DNA from: Fidelibacterota bacterium
GTDB taxonomy: Bacteria > Fidelibacterota > UBA8477 > JABMPR01
Direction: 5' to 3'
Assembly (NCBI GenBank): GCA_016784025.1
Contig: JADHVL010000002.1
Location: forward strand, 52,490 to 116,489
Length of the DNA stretch: 64,000 bases
Part shown: positions 23,976-28,141 of the stretch, one piece after another
Layout of the letters: each line of letters begins with the position of its first letter
Position numbering within the stretch: position 1 is the stretch's first letter
Translations under genes and position numbers: made by a program
Notes under the pieces: model-generated
Seen by the model: only the letters and a program-made list of their open reading frames with translations
Database searches by the model: none
Told to the model about the DNA's origin: nothing

Positions 23976-25598
23976 ATGGAAGCGCATCAAGCCAAACATA
24001 TCATTGTAACAGGGGGTGTCATCTCCGGTCTTGGAAAAGGTATTGCGGCTGCTTCCCTGGGAATGTTGTTGGAGCTAAAGAATAAGAAAGTCACTATCCA
24101 GAAACTGGATCCCTACCTGAATGTTGATCCTGGCACGATGAATCCATTTCAACACGGAGAAGTTTTTGTCCTGGATGATGGAACCGAAACCGATCTGGAT
24201 TTAGGTCACTACGAACGGTTTATTGATGCAGACATGACCAAGGCCAACAACAGTACGGCTGGTAGTATCTACTATGAGGTCCTGGAAAGAGAACGTCGCG
24301 GGGATTACCTCGGTGGAACTGTACAAATCATTCCTCATGTAACTGATGAAATCATTAAAAGAATTGAAAAGCCAGAACGAATTGATCCTGATCTTGATGT
24401 GGTTATCACGGAAATTGGTGGTACGGTTGGTGATATCGAAAGTCTTTCATTTCTTGAGGCAGTGCGCCAATTTCAACAGGCACGTGGTCGTGAGAATGTC
24501 ATCATCCTGCATGTTACCCTTATTCCATACATTGAAGCCAGTGAAGAGCTAAAAACGAAACCCAGTCAGCATTCCGTCATGCGCTTAAGAGAAATCGGTT
24601 TGCAGCCAGATATACTTTTCTGTCGCACACAGCACGAGCTAACAGATGATGTGAGACAGAAACTAGCCCTTTTCACAAATGTAAAACCCAATGCTGTCAT
24701 CCAGGGTCTGGATGCAAAATCAATTTATGAAGTCCCCCTCTTACTGCAAAAAGAACACCTTGCTGGTATTGTTATGGAAAAACTCCAGATGGAAAACGTT
24801 GAGTCTGATACCTCAAAATGGGAACAATTTGTTCATCATATTTTGAATCCAGAAGATGAAATCACAGTGGCCGTCGCAGGTAAATACACCGCCATGGTGG
24901 ATGCATATAAGAGCATCATTGAATCCTTTATTCATTCTGGAGTTGACAATCGCTGTAAAGTGAATATTGAATTTGTGGATGCTGAAGATCTTGAGTCCGA
25001 CTCTGGTTTGGAAAAAGTATTGGGGCATGTCCATGGAATTCTAATTCCCGGTGGTTTTGGCTCACGAGGTATCGAAGGCAAAATTCGGGCGGCTCAATAT
25101 GCCAGAGAAAAGCAAGTCCCGTTTCTGGGCCTGTGTCTCGGCTTGCAGGTAGCAGTCATTGAATACGCAAGGAATATGATGGGTCTTAGCGATGCAGACT
25201 CTGAAGAGTTTTCAGAAACCACTCCTCATCCGGTCATTCACCTCATGCTCTCACAACATCATGTGACCCACAAAGGTGCCAGCATGCGCTTAGGCGCTTA
25301 TGATTGTGTCCTGAAAGAGGGGACCAAAGCTTTCGAGGCCTACGGTGAAGTAAATGTTTCAGAGCGTCATCGTCATCGCTTTGAGGTGAACAATGCCTAT
25401 CGAGATCAATTGGAAAAAGCTGGTATGATCATTTCTGGAGCATCCCCGGATGATGAGCTGGTTGAGATGGTTGAAATAGCAGATCATCCTTGGTTTGTTG
25501 CAACTCAAGCCCACCCTGAGTTCAAGTCCAGAGTAGCTAAAACCCATCCCTTGTTTAAAGATTTTGTGAAAGCATCACTTCATTTTAAGAATCATTAG
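23976..25598 (+). CDS. pyrG: CTP synthase
   Basis: TGGVISGLGKGIAAAS in the synthetase domain and a GLCLGLQ class-I glutamine amidotransferase catalytic Cys; 540 aa. Confidence 0.95.
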   Translation: MEAHQAKHIIVTGGVISGLGKGIAAASLGMLLELKNKKVTIQKLDPYLNVDPGTMNPFQHGEVFVLDDGTETDLDLGHYERFIDADMTKANNSTAGSIYYEVLERERRGDYLGGTVQIIPHVTDEIIKRIEKPERIDPDLDVVITEIGGTVGDIESLSFLEAVRQFQQARGRENVIILHVTLIPYIEASEELKTKPSQHSVMRLREIGLQPDILFCRTQHELTDDVRQKLALFTNVKPNAVIQGLDAKSIYEVPLLLQKEHLAGIVMEKLQMENVESDTSKWEQFVHHILNPEDEITVAVAGKYTAMVDAYKSIIESFIHSGVDNRCKVNIEFVDAEDLESDSGLEKVLGHVHGILIPGGFGSRGIEGKIRAAQYAREKQVPFLGLCLGLQVAVIEYARNMMGLSDADSEEFSETTPHPVIHLMLSQHHVTHKGASMRLGAYDCVLKEGTKAFEAYGEVNVSERHRHRFEVNNAYRDQLEKAGMIISGASPDDELVEMVEIADHPWFVATQAHPEFKSRVAKTHPLFKDFVKASLHFKNH

Positions 25599-25764: not shown

Positions 25765-26448
25765 ATGCAGGCAAAGACTGTAGCAAGTTCAGGTCATCGA
25801 CAGAGATTAAGAGATCGATTTTTCCAAAATGGGATTGAATCCTTCCATGATTATGAAGTCCTGGAGCTCTTACTCACCCTGGCAACGCCCAGGAAAGACA
25901 TGAAGCCCCAGGCCAAAGAACTTATCCGACGATTTGGAAGTCTGGCTGGCGTATTGGAAGCTCCTACCTCAGTCCTCCTCGATGTAAAAGGGATGGGCCA
26001 TACAAATGTTTTTGTACTCAAACTTCCCCACGCAGTTGGCCGGAGGTACTTATTTGAACAGGCAAAGGGCAAAGATTATCTGAGATCCAGTAAAACAGTG
26101 AGGGATTATCTAACCCATAACTTACGTGAAAGAAATCGTGAGATTTTTATGGTCATCTTCCTGGATGGTCAAAATCAGATTATCAAAATGGAGGAGCTTT
26201 TTACTGGATCGCTCACCACTTCGGCTATCTACCCAAGGGAAGTCATTCAAAAGGTCTTGAGCTATGATGCAGCCAGTGTCATTCTGGTTCACAACCACCC
26301 CTCAGGTTCACTCACCCCCTCTGGTAGTGACCGGGCTGTGACTAAAAAACTGAAAGTAGCCCTGGCTTCCATTGATGTAGAAATTCTTGATCATCTCATT
26401 GTAGGGGGCAACGATTTTTTCTCATTCGCAGATCATCGACTTTTGTAA
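25765..26448 (+). CDS. radC: RadC-family JAB/MPN (JAMM) domain protein
   Basis: ILVHNHPSGSLTPSGSDRAVT is an intact JAMM motif (HxH...S..D) preceded by an HhH-like N-domain. The in-frame Met at 25765 is preferred over the track start at 25717. Confidence 0.85.
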   Translation: MQAKTVASSGHRQRLRDRFFQNGIESFHDYEVLELLLTLATPRKDMKPQAKELIRRFGSLAGVLEAPTSVLLDVKGMGHTNVFVLKLPHAVGRRYLFEQAKGKDYLRSSKTVRDYLTHNLRERNREIFMVIFLDGQNQIIKMEELFTGSLTTSAIYPREVIQKVLSYDAASVILVHNHPSGSLTPSGSDRAVTKKLKVALASIDVEILDHLIVGGNDFFSFADHRLL

Positions 26449-26631
26449 GATCCCTGAGAAATTTTAATCGCAGCCAATAAAAGCTGGAAGCATATTCAAC
26501 GTGATGTCCAGTATTGTATCTTCTTATTTTATCTAAACCTACGACTCTACCAAACCATGTTTTATATTGACAATTATTAATTGTGATATATATTCTCATC
26601 ATTAAGATTCAATGACGACCGGGGAGATTGT

Positions 26632-27180
26632 TTGAGAAATATATATCTAATTCTATTGGTGGCAGGTTTATCATCTTGTGGTTTGCCCCCCAAAGCGGAT
26701 TCAAATCCGCACCACTCATCAAGGCGAGCTCACACAGGTAAATACATCACTGAACAGACACATGTTGCCGGTAGTCGCAATCTCTTTGTCCAGCCTGACG
26801 GCAAACATTGTCTTAACTCCAGTAAAGCAGTGACAGAATATTTTAATGAGCGCCATCGAGAACGTAATCGAGATGCTGTTTTTATTATTCTCCTTGATGG
26901 AAAAAACCAGGTTTTAAATATGGATGAGTTAGGCTCAGAAATCTTCACAGCACCATCAATTTACATGTCGGAAGTGACACAAAAAGCAACCGACATTGAA
27001 GCCACCTCTGTGATTCTTGTACAATGCCTCCCCACACGATCATCAACACCCTACAATAACGACCGAGAGCTTTCAAAAAATTTGAAACTGGCTCTTGGAA
27101 CCATCAATGTGGGCTTGCTTGATCATCTTATTATTGGCCGCAATAAGTGCTTTTCCTTTGCTGACAATCAACTTCTATAA
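26632..27180 (+). CDS. Degenerate RadC-like JAB-domain paralog with a lipoprotein signal peptide (predicted pseudo-enzyme)
   Basis: About 45% identical to the C-terminal 120 aa of the upstream RadC, but the JAMM motif is replaced by QCLPTRSSTPYNNDRELS. N-terminus MRNIYLILLVAGLSSCG has an LSSC lipobox. TTG start at 26632 with GGGGAG 5 nt upstream. Confidence 0.5.
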   Translation: MRNIYLILLVAGLSSCGLPPKADSNPHHSSRRAHTGKYITEQTHVAGSRNLFVQPDGKHCLNSSKAVTEYFNERHRERNRDAVFIILLDGKNQVLNMDELGSEIFTAPSIYMSEVTQKATDIEATSVILVQCLPTRSSTPYNNDRELSKNLKLALGTINVGLLDHLIIGRNKCFSFADNQLL

Positions 27181-27193
27181 AAGCGAAAATATT

Positions 27194-28141
27194 ATGAGAT
27201 TTCTTTTAGTTCTGGTGCTCATGCTTAGTCTTATTTCATGCAGCATGCTTCTACCTATCAAAGTTGACAAAGCTGGAGATATCAAGATTAAATCTACTCC
27301 AGAGCGGCTGGTTCGTGGTGAATATCTTGTTGAACATGTCGCTGGGTGCGCTGATTGCCATAGCCAGCGGGACTGGTCAATATTTATGGCTCCCTCTATA
27401 GCTGGAACACATGGAGCCGGTGGTGAGGTATTCAATGAAGCGATGGGAACTCCTGGGACCATCTATGCTCCCAATATCACGCCTGCAGCACTTGATTCCT
27501 GGACAGATGGAGAGATTGTAAGGGCGATTACCTGCGGAGTGAATAAGGAGGGGGTTCCACTTTCTCCTATTATGCCTTATCCTAATTATGCTCGAATGAG
27601 TCAGGAAGATATCTATAGTATTGTGGCTTATCTAAGAACGCTGGCTCCTATCGCAAACGAGGTCCCAAAGCGTAAATTGAATTTCCCTTTAAACTTGATC
27701 GTCCGCACCATTCCAAAACAGGCTGAGTTTGGTACTCTCCCCTATAAAACTGATGCCATCGCCTATGGGAAATACATGACAAACGCAGCAGGTTGCACAG
27801 ACTGCCATACACCAATGGAAAAAGGCCAACCAGTAGCAGGGATGGAATTCGCAGGTGGTTTCACCATGGGAATGTTATCAGGCGGTACTGTGAATTCAGC
27901 GAATATTACCCCCCATGAAACAGGAATTAAAAGCTGGACGAAAGAGGGTTTCATCCAGCGCTTCAAGGCTTTGGATATTCCTGCAGCGCGTGAAGTCCCT
28001 CTGGCAGCGAACCAGGTAAACACCCCCATGCCCTGGACATATTATGCGACGATGCGGGCTGAGGATTTAGGAGCGATCTACGATTATCTGAGAAGCATTC
28101 CTGCAATAAACAATACAGTTATCAAATACCCCGAACTGTAA
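27194..28141 (+). CDS. Diheme c-type cytochrome (two class-I cytochrome c domains) lipoprotein
   Basis: CADCH and CTDCH heme-binding sites about 145 residues apart, each followed by a class-I cytochrome c fold pattern. N-terminus MRFLLVLVLMLSLISCS has a lipobox. The Met at 27194 is preferred over the track start at 27095. Confidence 0.8.
   Translation: MRFLLVLVLMLSLISCSMLLPIKVDKAGDIKIKSTPERLVRGEYLVEHVAGCADCHSQRDWSIFMAPSIAGTHGAGGEVFNEAMGTPGTIYAPNITPAALDSWTDGEIVRAITCGVNKEGVPLSPIMPYPNYARMSQEDIYSIVAYLRTLAPIANEVPKRKLNFPLNLIVRTIPKQAEFGTLPYKTDAIAYGKYMTNAAGCTDCHTPMEKGQPVAGMEFAGGFTMGMLSGGTVNSANITPHETGIKSWTKEGFIQRFKALDIPAAREVPLAANQVNTPMPWTYYATMRAEDLGAIYDYLRSIPAINNTVIKYPEL

What the first reader, a model, noticed from the sequence alone, without database searches (positions are those of the whole stretch)
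25765..28141. Tandem RadC duplication in which the second copy has lost the JAMM metal site and gained a lipoprotein signal, followed by a diheme cytochrome c lipoprotein
The second copy is about 45% identical to the upstream RadC over about 120 aa. Its HNHPSGS...D catalytic motif is replaced by QCLPTRSSTP...D, and its HhH N-domain is replaced by MRNIYLILLVAGLSSCG (lipobox). It has its own TTG start with a GGGGAG ribosome-binding site and abuts a cytochrome c lipoprotein. An exported, catalytically dead JAB-domain protein derived from a cytoplasmic DNA-repair-associated family is unusual. It may be a pseudo-enzyme with a new periplasmic role, or a decaying duplicate.
Basis: seen in the sequence. 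Interest (0 to 1): 0.65.

Follow-up and report, generated by a model that had tools for sequence, protein, structure and literature searches.

The report
Exported, metal-site-dead RadC paralogue lipoprotein
In one lineage of marine Marinimicrobia (SAR406) bacteria, a copy of the cytoplasmic RadC gene has lost its zinc-binding residues and gained a lipoprotein export signal, is kept by selection as a small, so far undescribed protein family, and is probably co-transcribed with a membrane-anchored two-haem cytochrome c; its function is unknown.

Summary
radC1 (25765-26448) is a full-length canonical RadC. radC2 (26632-27180) is 47% identical to it over 150 aa and keeps the RadC JAB fold. HNHPSG...PS..D has become QCLPTR...PY..D, and the HhH domain is replaced by a lipobox signal (Cys16). 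A diheme cytochrome c lipoprotein gene follows 13 nt later.

radC2 is not a decaying duplicate. Intact orthologues at 28-80% identity occur in 17 compared loci plus others, all from Marinimicrobia (SAR406) MAGs or metagenomes. dN/dS is 0.10-0.19, against 0.02-0.04 for radC1. All orthologues keep the lipobox Cys, an RRA(D/H)xGKY tether motif and an invariant Cys173. None keeps HxH.

The family is small: six 50%-identity clusters at E<1e-30 plus two weaker-scoring members, among 1.84 billion representatives. Its closest canonical relative is always the neighbouring radC1, so it arose by tandem duplication in this lineage.

A conserved promoter-like block with a palindrome precedes radC2, even where radC1 is absent. 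The unit therefore looks like radC2 plus the cytochrome gene. Related cytochromes elsewhere have no RadC neighbour, so a functional partnership is only inferred.

One sublineage carries a poly-A frameshift allele.

Verdict: a real, selected, probably exported pseudo-enzyme and a new variant of a known fold. Function unknown. Moderate interest.

The parts
25765..26448 (+). radC1: canonical full-length RadC (UPF0758/HhH N-domain plus JAB domain with intact HNHPSG...PS..D). It is the parent copy.
   Evidence: Pfam RadC 144.5 bits and UPF0758_N; NCBIfam RadC equivalog 221.6 bits against a cut-off of 180. It is 83-96% identical in related genomes, with dN/dS 0.02-0.04.
26567..26606 (+). Conserved promoter-like block: TTGACA, 16 nt, TATATT. 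An imperfect palindrome (GTGATA-TATAT-TCTCAT here; GTGATA-TATAT-TATCAC in relatives) overlaps the -10. Candidate promoter and operator of the radC2-cytochrome unit.
   Evidence: 11 of 12 consensus matches. It is the only conserved block in an otherwise divergent spacer across 14 loci, including L009 and L022, where radC1 is not upstream. The motif is found only at this position in the loci and is unique in the window.
26616..26621 (+). Shine-Dalgarno-like GGGGAG, 5 nt upstream of the TTG start of radC2.
   Evidence: Read from the sequence. A GGAG-like element precedes the start in most orthologous loci, and the TTG start is conserved in most of the 17 loci.
26632..27180 (+). radC2: 182-aa RadC-derived pseudo-JAB lipoprotein (stop codon included).
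   Evidence: Pfam RadC JAB domain 83.5 bits, E = 1.5e-23. 47% identical to radC1. AlphaFold model: residues 60-182 at pLDDT about 90; Foldseek top hit is RadC 2QLC, TM 0.88, rmsd 2.0 A. dN/dS 0.10-0.19.
26632..26679 (+). Predicted lipoprotein signal peptide MRNIYLILLVAGLSS-C. The lipobox is L-S-S-C, and Cys16 is the codon at 26677-26679.
   Evidence: Matches the PS51257 rule. The Cys and the hydrophobic stretch are kept in all full-length family members. Codons 2-58 have dN/dS 0.09-0.23, with one pair at 0.41.
26722..26745 (+). Family-specific tether motif RRAHTGKY (consensus [ST]RRA[DH]xGKY), in a segment predicted to be disordered.
   Evidence: R31, R32, A33, K37 and Y38 are kept in at least 90% of 18 sequences. 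pLDDT is below 50 for residues 21-48. The motif is absent from canonical RadC.
26806..27177 (+). JAB/MPN-fold domain of radC2 (residues 59-182).
27022..27063 (+). Degenerate JAMM site QCLPTRSSTPYNND, replacing HNHPSGSLTPSGSD. Both Zn-ligand His and the Ser are lost; the Asp is kept.
   Evidence: Alignments with radC1 and with 2QLC. No family member keeps HxH. Q131, P134, [ST]135 and R136 are semi-conserved.
27148..27150 (+). Cys173, invariant in the family. Canonical RadC has an aromatic residue or His here (...C-F-S-F-A-D).
   Evidence: Invariant in 18 of 18 sequences. radC1 has Phe and 2QLC has Trp.
26901..26906 (+). A6 run in the window. The homologous A8 run in a related sublineage carries an A7 frameshift allele.
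27194..28141 (+). Diheme c-type cytochrome lipoprotein. Signal MRFLLVLVLMLSLIS-C, with Cys16 at 27239-27241. CADCH at 27347-27361 and CTDCH at 27794-27808.
   Evidence: Pfam Cytochrom_C 38 bits against a cut-off of 21.3. PS51257 match. Best solved relatives are the cytochrome subunits of membrane-bound glucose, fructose and alcohol dehydrogenases (8hdd_B, E = 1.8e-25). dN/dS 0.04-0.06.

Best explanation
radC2 is a functional gene that arose by tandem duplication of the resident radC1 within a lineage of Marinimicrobia (SAR406; NCBI Fidelibacterota).

**What changed in the copy.** It lost the N-terminal HhH/UPF0758 domain and gained a Sec/Lgt-type lipoprotein signal. Every zinc-ligand His of the JAMM site was replaced. 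The JAB fold was kept.

**Inferred product.** The product is most likely lipidated on Cys16 and held on a membrane facing the periplasm by a flexible tether of about 40 residues that carries a conserved RRA(D/H)xGKY motif. Without the HxH, Ser and metal it cannot act as a JAMM metallo-hydrolase. It most likely acts as a non-catalytic binding module, a pseudo-enzyme whose former active-site pocket is now lined by conserved Gln, Pro, Thr/Ser, Arg and Tyr/Phe residues.

**Inferred expression and partner.** It is expressed from its own conserved sigma-70-like promoter, which has a palindromic candidate operator. It is probably co-transcribed with the downstream diheme cytochrome c lipoprotein. My preferred guess, weakly supported, is that it is an accessory or docking partner of that membrane-anchored cytochrome.

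**Shown here:** homology, loss of the motif, retained fold (predicted model), purifying selection, a conserved lipobox, conserved synteny and promoter block, and in-lineage origin.

**Inferred:** export and lipidation, lack of catalysis, co-transcription, and the partnership with the cytochrome.

**What the confidence covers.** The confidence given (0.7) is for the core claim: a selected, catalytically inactive, exported RadC paralogue. The cytochrome partnership alone has a probability of about 0.2-0.3.
For: **Homology and fold.**
- BLASTP to radC1: 47% over 150 aa, E = 9e-46.
- Pfam RadC JAB domain: 83.5 bits.
- The AlphaFold JAB domain has pLDDT about 90 and matches RadC 2QLC at TM 0.88.

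**Dead site.** HNHPSG..PS..D has become QCLPTR..PY..D. No HxH is present in any of 18 family sequences.

**Selection.**
- Eight loci entered the dN/dS comparison, and the 17 loci whose starts were compared (28-80% identity) all have an intact ORF.
- dN/dS is 0.10-0.19 in the pairs with an estimable dS below about 2. For window against L012, dN = 0.108 and dS = 0.93.
- For comparison: radC1 0.02-0.04, cytochrome c 0.04-0.06, pyrG 0.02-0.03.
- The N-terminal 58 codons are equally constrained.

**Export signal.**
- The PS51257 rule is met by the window protein and by 8 of 16 database relatives.
- All full-length members keep a basic N-terminus, a hydrophobic stretch and [ST/A]-Cys at positions 16-22.
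- 0 of 142 canonical RadC proteins match.

**Translation start.** The TTG start and a GGAG-like element upstream are conserved.

**Origin.** For every family member tested, the nearest canonical RadC is the Marinimicrobia radC1 (137 bits against 84 bits for the next best).

**Family size.** Six 50%-identity clusters at E<1e-30, plus two weaker-scoring members (P0019 and P0021, E about 1e-26 and 1e-22), among 1.84 billion representatives.

**Transcription unit.**
- The promoter/palindrome block is conserved in 14 loci. These include L009 and L022, where an RND pump or other DNA, not radC1, lies upstream.
- The window's gap to the cytochrome gene is 13 nt, with no terminator-like site.
- radC2 is followed by the cytochrome gene in every locus examined.
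Against: - Export is only predicted. No SignalP or LipoP run and no experiment is available.
- Seven of 16 database relatives miss the strict PROSITE rule by one residue or a mis-called start.
- The cytochrome family is widespread at 50-57% identity in Ignavibacteria, Bacteroidota and SAR324, and it has no RadC-like neighbour in the two outgroup contexts read (L034, L036). The cytochrome therefore does not generally need such a partner.
- The adjacency may simply mark where radC1 happened to be duplicated. All family members come from one lineage with a broadly conserved gene order, so synteny is weak evidence of functional linkage.
- radC2 evolves 3-5 times faster than its neighbours.
- One sublineage carries an A8-to-A7 frameshift allele in two independent assemblies. 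The gene may therefore be dispensable or variably expressed.
- No ligand or partner was identified.
Confidence: 0.7

Rival explanations
1. radC2 is exported and functional, but its role has nothing to do with the cytochrome. The adjacency is only a historical by-product of a tandem duplication of radC1 next to the cytochrome gene. The pseudo-JAB might then bind something else in the periplasm, for example nucleic acid or nucleotides, in line with the nucleic-acid context proposed for RadC-type JAB domains.
For: - Cytochrome homologues in other phyla have no RadC neighbour.
- The whole neighbourhood pyrG-radC1-radC2-cytochrome-acyltransferase is syntenic across the clade, so adjacency is not independent evidence.
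- Iyer et al. 2011 infer nucleic-acid or nucleotide-related roles for RadC-type JAB domains (PMC3239186).
- The conserved tether motif is basic (RRAxxGKY).
Against: - The radC2-cytochrome pair stays together, with its promoter block, where the upstream context differs (L009, L010, L022).
- The window's gap to the cytochrome gene is 13 nt, without a terminator.
- No direct evidence exists for any alternative ligand.
Confidence: 0.3
2. radC2 is a cytoplasmic, inactive MPN-minus-type partner of the active RadC1, analogous to the Rpn8-Rpn11 or CSN6-CSN5 pairs. On this reading the hydrophobic N-terminus is not a working export signal.
For: - A tandem active/inactive pair is the classical arrangement of MPN+/MPN- heterodimers (established knowledge).
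- Weak Foldseek matches to the BRCC36-KIAA0157 and Rpn8-Rpn11 complexes.
- An alternative TTG codon lies at codon 18, just after the lipobox.
Against: - The lipobox Cys, the hydrophobic stretch and the basic N-terminus are conserved in all full-length members down to 28% identity, and they are under purifying selection.
- The conserved SD-like element and TTG codon sit at the upstream start.
- radC2 persists without an adjacent radC1 in L009, L010 and L022.
- radC2 has its own conserved promoter.
Confidence: 0.08
3. radC2 is a decaying duplicate, that is, a pseudogene or a gene on its way out.
For: - It evolves 3-5 times faster than radC1 and its other neighbours.
- The catalytic motif is destroyed.
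- It has a weak TTG start.
- An A7 frameshift allele giving a 94-aa product occurs in two independent assemblies.
Against: - dN/dS is 0.10-0.19, far below 1.
- ORFs are intact in all other lineages despite divergence to 28% identity.
- New invariant residues have appeared: the RRAxxGKY motif and Cys173.
- Seven of the 8 substitutions downstream of the frameshift are synonymous in the original frame, so even that allele was constrained until very recently.
Confidence: 0.04
4. radC2 is still an enzyme, but with a new, metal-independent catalytic site, for example one based on the invariant Cys173 and/or Cys132.
For: - Cys173 is invariant.
- The replaced motif is itself conserved (Q-x-x-P-[ST]-R-[ST]), which suggests a remodelled functional pocket rather than drift.
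Against: - Cys132 and Cys60 are not conserved in the divergent members.
- No known thiol-based JAB enzyme exists to serve as a model (my knowledge).
Confidence: 0.08

Closest known systems
RadC / UPF0758 family (Pfam PF04002 RadC-like JAB domain; NCBIfam NF000642; structure 2QLC from Chlorobium tepidum)
   Same: Clear sequence homology in the JAB domain (83.5 bits). The predicted fold matches 2QLC (TM 0.88). The structural-core motifs are kept (LxSS, ILV, LDH, SFAD). It derives from the neighbouring radC1.
   Different: It has no HhH/UPF0758_N domain. The JAMM residues are lost (HxH, and Ser to Tyr). It scores below the full-length RadC cut-off (83.6 bits against 180). It has an N-terminal lipoprotein signal, a new tether motif and an invariant Cys173. 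Its predicted location is periplasmic rather than cytoplasmic.
Inactive RadC-type JAB domains fused to DinG/RAD3-like helicases in fusobacteria (Iyer, Zhang, Rogozin and Aravind 2011, PMC3239186)
   Same: These are RadC-type JAB domains that have lost the zinc-coordinating residues and are presumed to be catalytically inactive.
   Different: Those are cytoplasmic domains fused to a helicase in a DNA-metabolism context. radC2 is a stand-alone protein with a lipoprotein export signal, next to a cytochrome c gene.
Eukaryotic MPN-minus pseudo-enzymes (Rpn8, CSN6, eIF3f/h, KIAA0157/Abraxas)
   Same: They have the same JAB/MPN fold without the metal site. They work as non-catalytic scaffolds or binding partners, and they arose by duplication of an active paralogue.
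   Different: There is only distant fold-level similarity (Foldseek E about 1e-2). Those proteins heterodimerise with their active paralogue in the same compartment. Here the two paralogues are predicted to lie on opposite sides of the inner membrane.
Cytochrome c subunits of membrane-bound glucose, fructose and alcohol dehydrogenases (8hdd_B, 7w2j_C, 8gy2_B). This comparison concerns the downstream gene.
   Same: Sequence similarity over two class-I haem domains (E = 1.8e-25 to 5e-19). Both are membrane-associated periplasmic electron carriers.
   Different: The window protein has two CxxCH motifs and about 315 aa, not three haems and about 480 aa. It is lipid-anchored, and no dehydrogenase genes are adjacent.

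Membership tests
RadC-like JAB domain (Pfam PF04002) | Score above the Pfam gathering threshold over the whole domain | tested here: met
   83.5 bits against 22.1; profile positions 1-120 of 121.
RadC-like JAB domain (Pfam PF04002) | JAB/MPN (deaminase-like) fold | tested here: met
   AlphaFold model with residues 60-182 at pLDDT about 90. Foldseek top hit is 2QLC: E = 1e-10, TM 0.88, rmsd 2.0 A. This is a predicted model, not a solved structure.
Full-length RadC (NCBIfam NF000642 equivalog; TIGR00608) | Score above the curated whole-protein cut-off; N-terminal HhH/UPF0758_N domain present | tested here: not met
   83.6 bits against 180, and 71.8 against 133.85. Only profile positions 78-211 match, and there is no UPF0758_N hit. 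radC1 passes (221.6 bits).
JAMM/MPN+ metallo-hydrolases | Zinc site E...HxH...S..D | tested here: not met
   HNH has become QCL, and PS has become PY. Only the Asp is kept, and the upstream Glu is Asp in the window copy. No HxH is present in any of 18 family members.
Bacterial lipoproteins (PROSITE PS51257 rule) | K/R in the first 7 residues, an uncharged hydrophobic stretch, and a lipobox [LIVMFWSTAG]2-[LIVMFYSTAGCQ]-[AGS]-C with the Cys at positions 15-35 | tested here: met
   The window protein has Cys16 and Arg2 (the rule was re-implemented from memory). Eight of 16 database relatives match strictly. The rest deviate at one lipobox position or have a mis-called start.
Bacterial lipoproteins | Actual Lgt/LspA processing and membrane anchoring | not testable with these tools
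   This needs an experiment, or at least SignalP/LipoP, neither of which was available.
MPN-minus scaffold pseudo-enzymes | Heterodimer with an active MPN+ paralogue | not testable with these tools
   No complex prediction was available. The predicted export argues against a shared compartment with RadC1.
c-type cytochromes (downstream gene) | CxxCH haem-attachment motifs; Pfam Cytochrom_C above its threshold | tested here: met
   Two CxxCH motifs (27347-27361 and 27794-27808). PF00034 scores 38 bits against 21.3.
Anti-phage defence systems with RadC/JAB components (PADLOC) | Match to a PADLOC model | tested here: not met
   No hits for radC1, radC2 or the cytochrome.

The most novel reading that the evidence does not exclude
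The RadC-derived pseudo-JAB lipoprotein is a genuine periplasmic component, the first exported member of the RadC/JAB fold. On this reading it was recruited as a regulated accessory subunit, a docking or stabilising partner acting through its remodelled pocket and RRAxxGKY tether, of a membrane-anchored diheme cytochrome c in SAR406 bacteria. A cytoplasmic nucleic-acid-associated fold would thus have been re-purposed for respiratory electron transfer. A poly-A tract might allow on/off switching in some strains.
Probability: 0.2. Interest if true: 0.65.

Novelty: new variant of a known kind. Interest (0 to 1): 0.5.

Why it matters
- **A cleanly documented neofunctionalisation.** RadC is among the most widespread bacterial proteins whose function is still unknown. 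Here a tandem duplicate changed cellular compartment, lost its metal site, and was then held by selection for long enough to diverge to 28% identity.
- **The pseudo-enzyme concept extended.** Inactive JAB/MPN domains are well known in eukaryotes. This case extends the idea to an exported bacterial lipoprotein.
- **An annotation fix.** JGI names family members 'DNA repair protein RadC', which is misleading. NCBI names them 'hypothetical protein'.
- **A handle on an uncultured lineage.** If the link to the diheme cytochrome is real, it points to a lineage-specific accessory factor in the respiratory chain of SAR406. This is an abundant deep-ocean and oxygen-minimum-zone group.
- **Limited scope.** The finding is restricted to one lineage, and no function has been demonstrated.

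Tried and rejected
- **Pseudogene or decay.** Rejected by the dN/dS values and the intact orthologues.
- **Frameshift in L024 as a long-read homopolymer error.** Rejected. The same A7 allele is present in an independent MEGAHIT assembly (L038), so it is a real allele.
- **Horizontal acquisition of radC2.** Rejected. The resident radC1 is the closest canonical RadC for every family member.
- **Defence-system context.** No PADLOC hits, and the neighbourhood is housekeeping: pyrG, glmM-like mutase, acyltransferases.
- **RNA element in the radC1-radC2 spacer.** No Rfam match at E <= 1.
- **Regulon inference from the palindrome.** The motif is unique in the 64-kb window and occurs only upstream of radC2 in the fetched loci.
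- **A conserved disulfide or new Cys-based metal site from Cys60, Cys132 and Cys173.** Only Cys173 is invariant. Cys60 and Cys132 are lost in divergent members.
- **The radC2 signal peptide copied from the cytochrome signal.** Both are 16-residue MR...L-x-S-C signals, but I saw no convincing nucleotide similarity by eye, so I make no claim.
- **Literature searches for exported or lipoprotein RadC, or RadC pseudo-enzymes.** Nothing relevant beyond Iyer et al. 2011.
- **Other, independent exported RadC-like families.** These could not be enumerated, because only the best 150 of 18,443 hits are returned. None of the 142 canonical hits listed has a lipobox.
- **The antisense 68-aa ORF called in databases (26396-26602, minus strand).** Judged spurious, because it lies in the non-conserved spacer.
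Full report
**1. The observation**

- radC1: 25765-26448, ATG start, 227 aa.
- radC2: 26632-27180, TTG start, 182 aa.
- c-type cytochrome: 27194-28141, 315 aa.

BLASTP of radC1 against radC2 gives 70/150 identities (47%), no gaps, E = 9e-46. radC1 is a textbook RadC. It scores 144.5 bits on the Pfam RadC JAB domain, hits UPF0758_N, and scores 221.6 bits on the NCBIfam RadC equivalog (cut-off 180). radC2 hits only the JAB domain (83.5 bits, E = 1.5e-23). It falls well below the full-length RadC cut-offs.

The catalytic stretch VHNHPSGSLTPSGSD of radC1 aligns with VQCLPTRSSTPYNND in radC2. Both zinc-ligand histidines and the JAMM serine are gone, and the aspartate stays. The same alignment is obtained against the solved RadC domain 2QLC.

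The N-terminus MRNIYLILLVAGLSSC satisfies the PROSITE lipoprotein rule as I re-implemented it (Cys16, Arg2). The cytochrome's MRFLLVLVLMLSLISC satisfies it too. GGGGAG lies 5 nt before the TTG start. The gap to the cytochrome gene is 13 nt. The cytochrome has two CxxCH motifs.

**2. Source organism and spread of radC2**

The identical radC2 protein is on at least 23 contigs from metagenomes. NCBI files it as 'hypothetical protein' from FCB-group or Candidatus Marinimicrobia MAGs. JGI files relatives as 'DNA repair protein RadC'.

A word-indexed search found 12 relatives at 51-99% identity. An exhaustive profile search of 1.84 billion 50%-identity representatives found only six clusters at E<1e-30. 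After a fragment (P0019) and one very divergent member (P0021), the hits drop straight into canonical HNHPSG-bearing RadC proteins. The species-representative genomes that carry it are all 'Candidatus Neomarinimicrobiota' MAGs, which is NCBI phylum Fidelibacterota in the FCB group. The family is therefore small and restricted to one lineage.

**3. A selected gene, not a decaying copy**

All 17 loci whose starts were compared carry an intact ORF of 170-199 codons, although identity to the window protein falls to 28%.

| Gene | dN/dS (Nei-Gojobori) |
|---|---|
| radC2 | 0.10-0.19 |
| radC1 | 0.02-0.04 |
| cytochrome c | 0.04-0.06 |
| pyrG | 0.02-0.03 |

The radC2 range is for the pairs with an estimable dS below about 2. 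For window against L012, dN = 0.108, dS = 0.93 and omega = 0.12. Selection is thus purifying but 3-5 times more relaxed than on the neighbours. In the same genome pairs, radC1 is 83-96% identical while radC2 is 40-79% identical. The first 58 codons (signal plus tether) are constrained as strongly as the JAB domain (omega 0.09-0.23, one pair at 0.41). This argues that they are translated.

**4. What is conserved**

Across 18 family sequences (alignment A3) two groups of positions are invariant or nearly so.
- **Structural core shared with RadC:** L61, S63, S64, V67, Y70, L88, A124, S126, I128-L129-V130, L163-D164, S175-F176-A177-D178.
- **Family-specific features:** the lipobox Cys16; a motif [ST]-R-R-A-[DH]-x-G-K-Y at residues 30-38; F52; and Cys173, where canonical RadC has Phe, Trp, Tyr or His.

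No member keeps HxH. The replacement is itself semi-conserved (V-Q-[CYN]-[LQ]-P-[ST]-R-[ST]-x-x-P-[YF]). This looks like a remodelled pocket rather than drift. Cys60 and Cys132 are not kept in the divergent members, so a conserved disulfide or Cys-based metal site is not supported.

Eight of 16 database relatives match the strict PROSITE lipobox rule. The others miss by one position or through a mis-called start. For example, P0021 has an upstream ATG that gives MRWLLTIAISTLFMAC. None of 142 canonical RadC hits matches the rule. The TTG start and a GGAG-like element 5-9 nt upstream are conserved in most loci.

**5. Fold**

An AlphaFold2 model was built on a shallow 15-sequence alignment. It gives pLDDT about 90 for residues 60-182 and below 50 for residues 1-48. 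Foldseek against the PDB returns RadC 2QLC first: E = 1e-10, TM 0.88 normalised to the target, rmsd 2.0 A. Only marginal hits follow, to eukaryotic MPN proteins and cytidine deaminases.

The strand ending at residue 132 and the helix starting at residue 142 occupy the places that carry HxH and Asp in JAMM enzymes. The fold is therefore retained without its metal ligands. The first ~58 residues, between the lipid anchor and the domain, are predicted to be flexible.

**6. Origin**

For the window protein and for seven divergent members, the best canonical RadC is the Marinimicrobia radC1. The comparison set was radC1 plus the best global hits. For the window protein the scores are 137 bits for radC1 and 84 bits for the next best.

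Every family member also sits at the same syntenic position, just downstream of radC1 in nearly all loci. This points to a tandem duplication of radC1 in the ancestor of this lineage. The similarity begins at radC1 residue 78, so the copy retains a remnant of the last helix of the N-terminal domain. Residues 1-32 are new.

**7. Context and transcription unit**

The gene order is Fer4 protein (-), pyrG, radC1, radC2, cytochrome c, then, convergent, acyltransferase, HI0933-like flavoprotein, GNAT and a phosphoglucosamine-mutase-like gene. This order is shared by nearly all loci. In L009 and L010 an RND efflux operon lies upstream instead of radC1. In L022 no radC1 is found in the 380 nt upstream. 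In all three, radC2, the cytochrome gene and the acyltransferase gene stay together.

The radC1-radC2 spacer is poorly conserved except for one block of about 40 bp (window 26567-26606). The block reads TTGACA, 16 nt, TATATT (11 of 12 consensus positions). A 6-5-6 palindrome GTGATA-TATAT-TATCAC overlaps the -10. It is perfect in several loci; the window has GTGATATATATTCTCAT. The block is present in all 14 loci aligned, including L009 and L022. It is unique in the window and occurs only at this position in the fetched loci. Rfam finds nothing in the spacer.

I read this block as the promoter, with a candidate operator, of a radC2-cytochrome unit. No terminator-like site separates the two genes in the window.

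**8. The cytochrome**

Its best solved relatives are the cytochrome subunits of membrane-bound glucose, fructose and alcohol dehydrogenases (8hdd_B at E = 1.8e-25). It has only two haem motifs.

Its family is large. There were 6,866 hits among the 8,000 candidates scored, and it is widespread at 50-57% identity in Ignavibacteria, Bacteroidota, Kapabacteria and SAR324. Some members are lipoproteins (P0185, P0254) and others have an N-terminal membrane helix (P0212, P0236). In the two outgroup contexts I read (L034, L036) there is no RadC-like neighbour.

The cytochrome therefore does not generally need a RadC2-like partner. The adjacency here may be a historical accident of where radC1 lay. This is the main weakness of the partnership hypothesis.

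**9. A frameshift allele**

In one sublineage an A8 run (GAT AAA AAA AAC) is A7 in L024 and also in L038. L024 is FLOH01000011.1, a 1.06-Mb contig. L038 is an independent k141 short-read assembly. The A7 allele gives a 94-aa product (P0284, P0293). The sister allele L021 and the partial P0295 are in frame.

Seven of the eight substitutions between L021 and L024 downstream of the shift are synonymous in the original frame (read from alignment A4). The shift is therefore recent or reversible. The window has only A6 at that place (26901-26906) and is intact. Against the bulk of the evidence, it indicates at most dispensability or variable expression in some strains.

**10. Comparison with what is known**

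Inactive RadC-type JAB domains have been noted once, as helicase fusions in fusobacteria (Iyer et al. 2011, PMC3239186). Full-text searches found no description of an exported, lipoprotein or periplasmic RadC-like protein, nor of a RadC pseudo-enzyme. PADLOC has no match.

Functionally, the nearest analogy is the eukaryotic MPN-minus pseudo-enzymes. radC2 is not a member of those families, and it is predicted to lie in a different compartment from its active paralogue.

**11. Verdict**

The finding is real. Export is strongly suggested by conserved sequence features but is unproven. The mechanism I commit to is a lipid-anchored, non-catalytic JAB-fold binding module, co-expressed with and probably acting on or with the diheme cytochrome c lipoprotein. 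The core of this is reasonably secure. The cytochrome partnership has a probability of about 0.2-0.3.

It is a new variant of a known fold family, confined to one uncultured lineage. Interest is moderate.

Noticed in passing
window 26567-26606 (+); the same block lies upstream of radC2 in L007-L009, L011-L015, L021-L023, L025 and L028-L033: This is a conserved block of about 40 bp in an otherwise unconserved spacer. It reads TTGACA, 16 nt, TATATT, with a 6-5-6 palindrome GTGATA-TATAT-TATCAC overlapping the -10. The half-sites resemble CRP-type TGTGA/TCACA but have a 9-nt spacer. The regulator is unknown.
   Followed up: partly
L024 5262-5275 and L038 2950-2962; homologous to window 26896-26908: A poly-A tract inside radC2 is A8 in intact alleles and A7 in two independent assemblies of one sublineage, which truncates the protein at 94 aa. 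Downstream substitutions are still mostly synonymous in the original frame. This may be slippage or phase variation, or a very recent loss.
   Followed up: partly
window 26632 and the orthologous starts in 17 loci: The rare TTG start codon of radC2 is conserved in most orthologous loci, with a GGAG-like element upstream. This suggests deliberately low or regulated translation.
   Followed up: partly
window 26396-26602 (-): A 68-aa antisense ORF spanning the radC1 3' end and the spacer is called as a gene in several public assemblies (for example L001 5765-5971). It lies in non-conserved DNA and is probably a spurious call.
   Followed up: no
window 27194 versus 27221: Public gene calls start the cytochrome c at an internal ATG (306 aa), which cuts off most of the signal peptide. 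The upstream ATG at 27194 gives a proper lipoprotein signal (MRFLLVLVLMLSLISC). Some orthologues are instead over-extended (332-356 aa) so that they overlap radC2.
   Followed up: partly
L034 6001-7351: In a more distant relative (57% identical cytochrome), the diheme cytochrome gene is followed by a small monoheme cytochrome c gene rather than preceded by a RadC paralogue. This may hint at the usual redox partner of this cytochrome family.
   Followed up: no
window 23976-25598 and loci L001, L005, L032: pyrG lies directly upstream of radC1, and a divergent 4Fe-4S ferredoxin-domain protein of about 425 aa lies upstream on the opposite strand. Both are conserved across the lineage. Gene order in this clade is stable, which limits what adjacency can say about function.
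   Followed up: no
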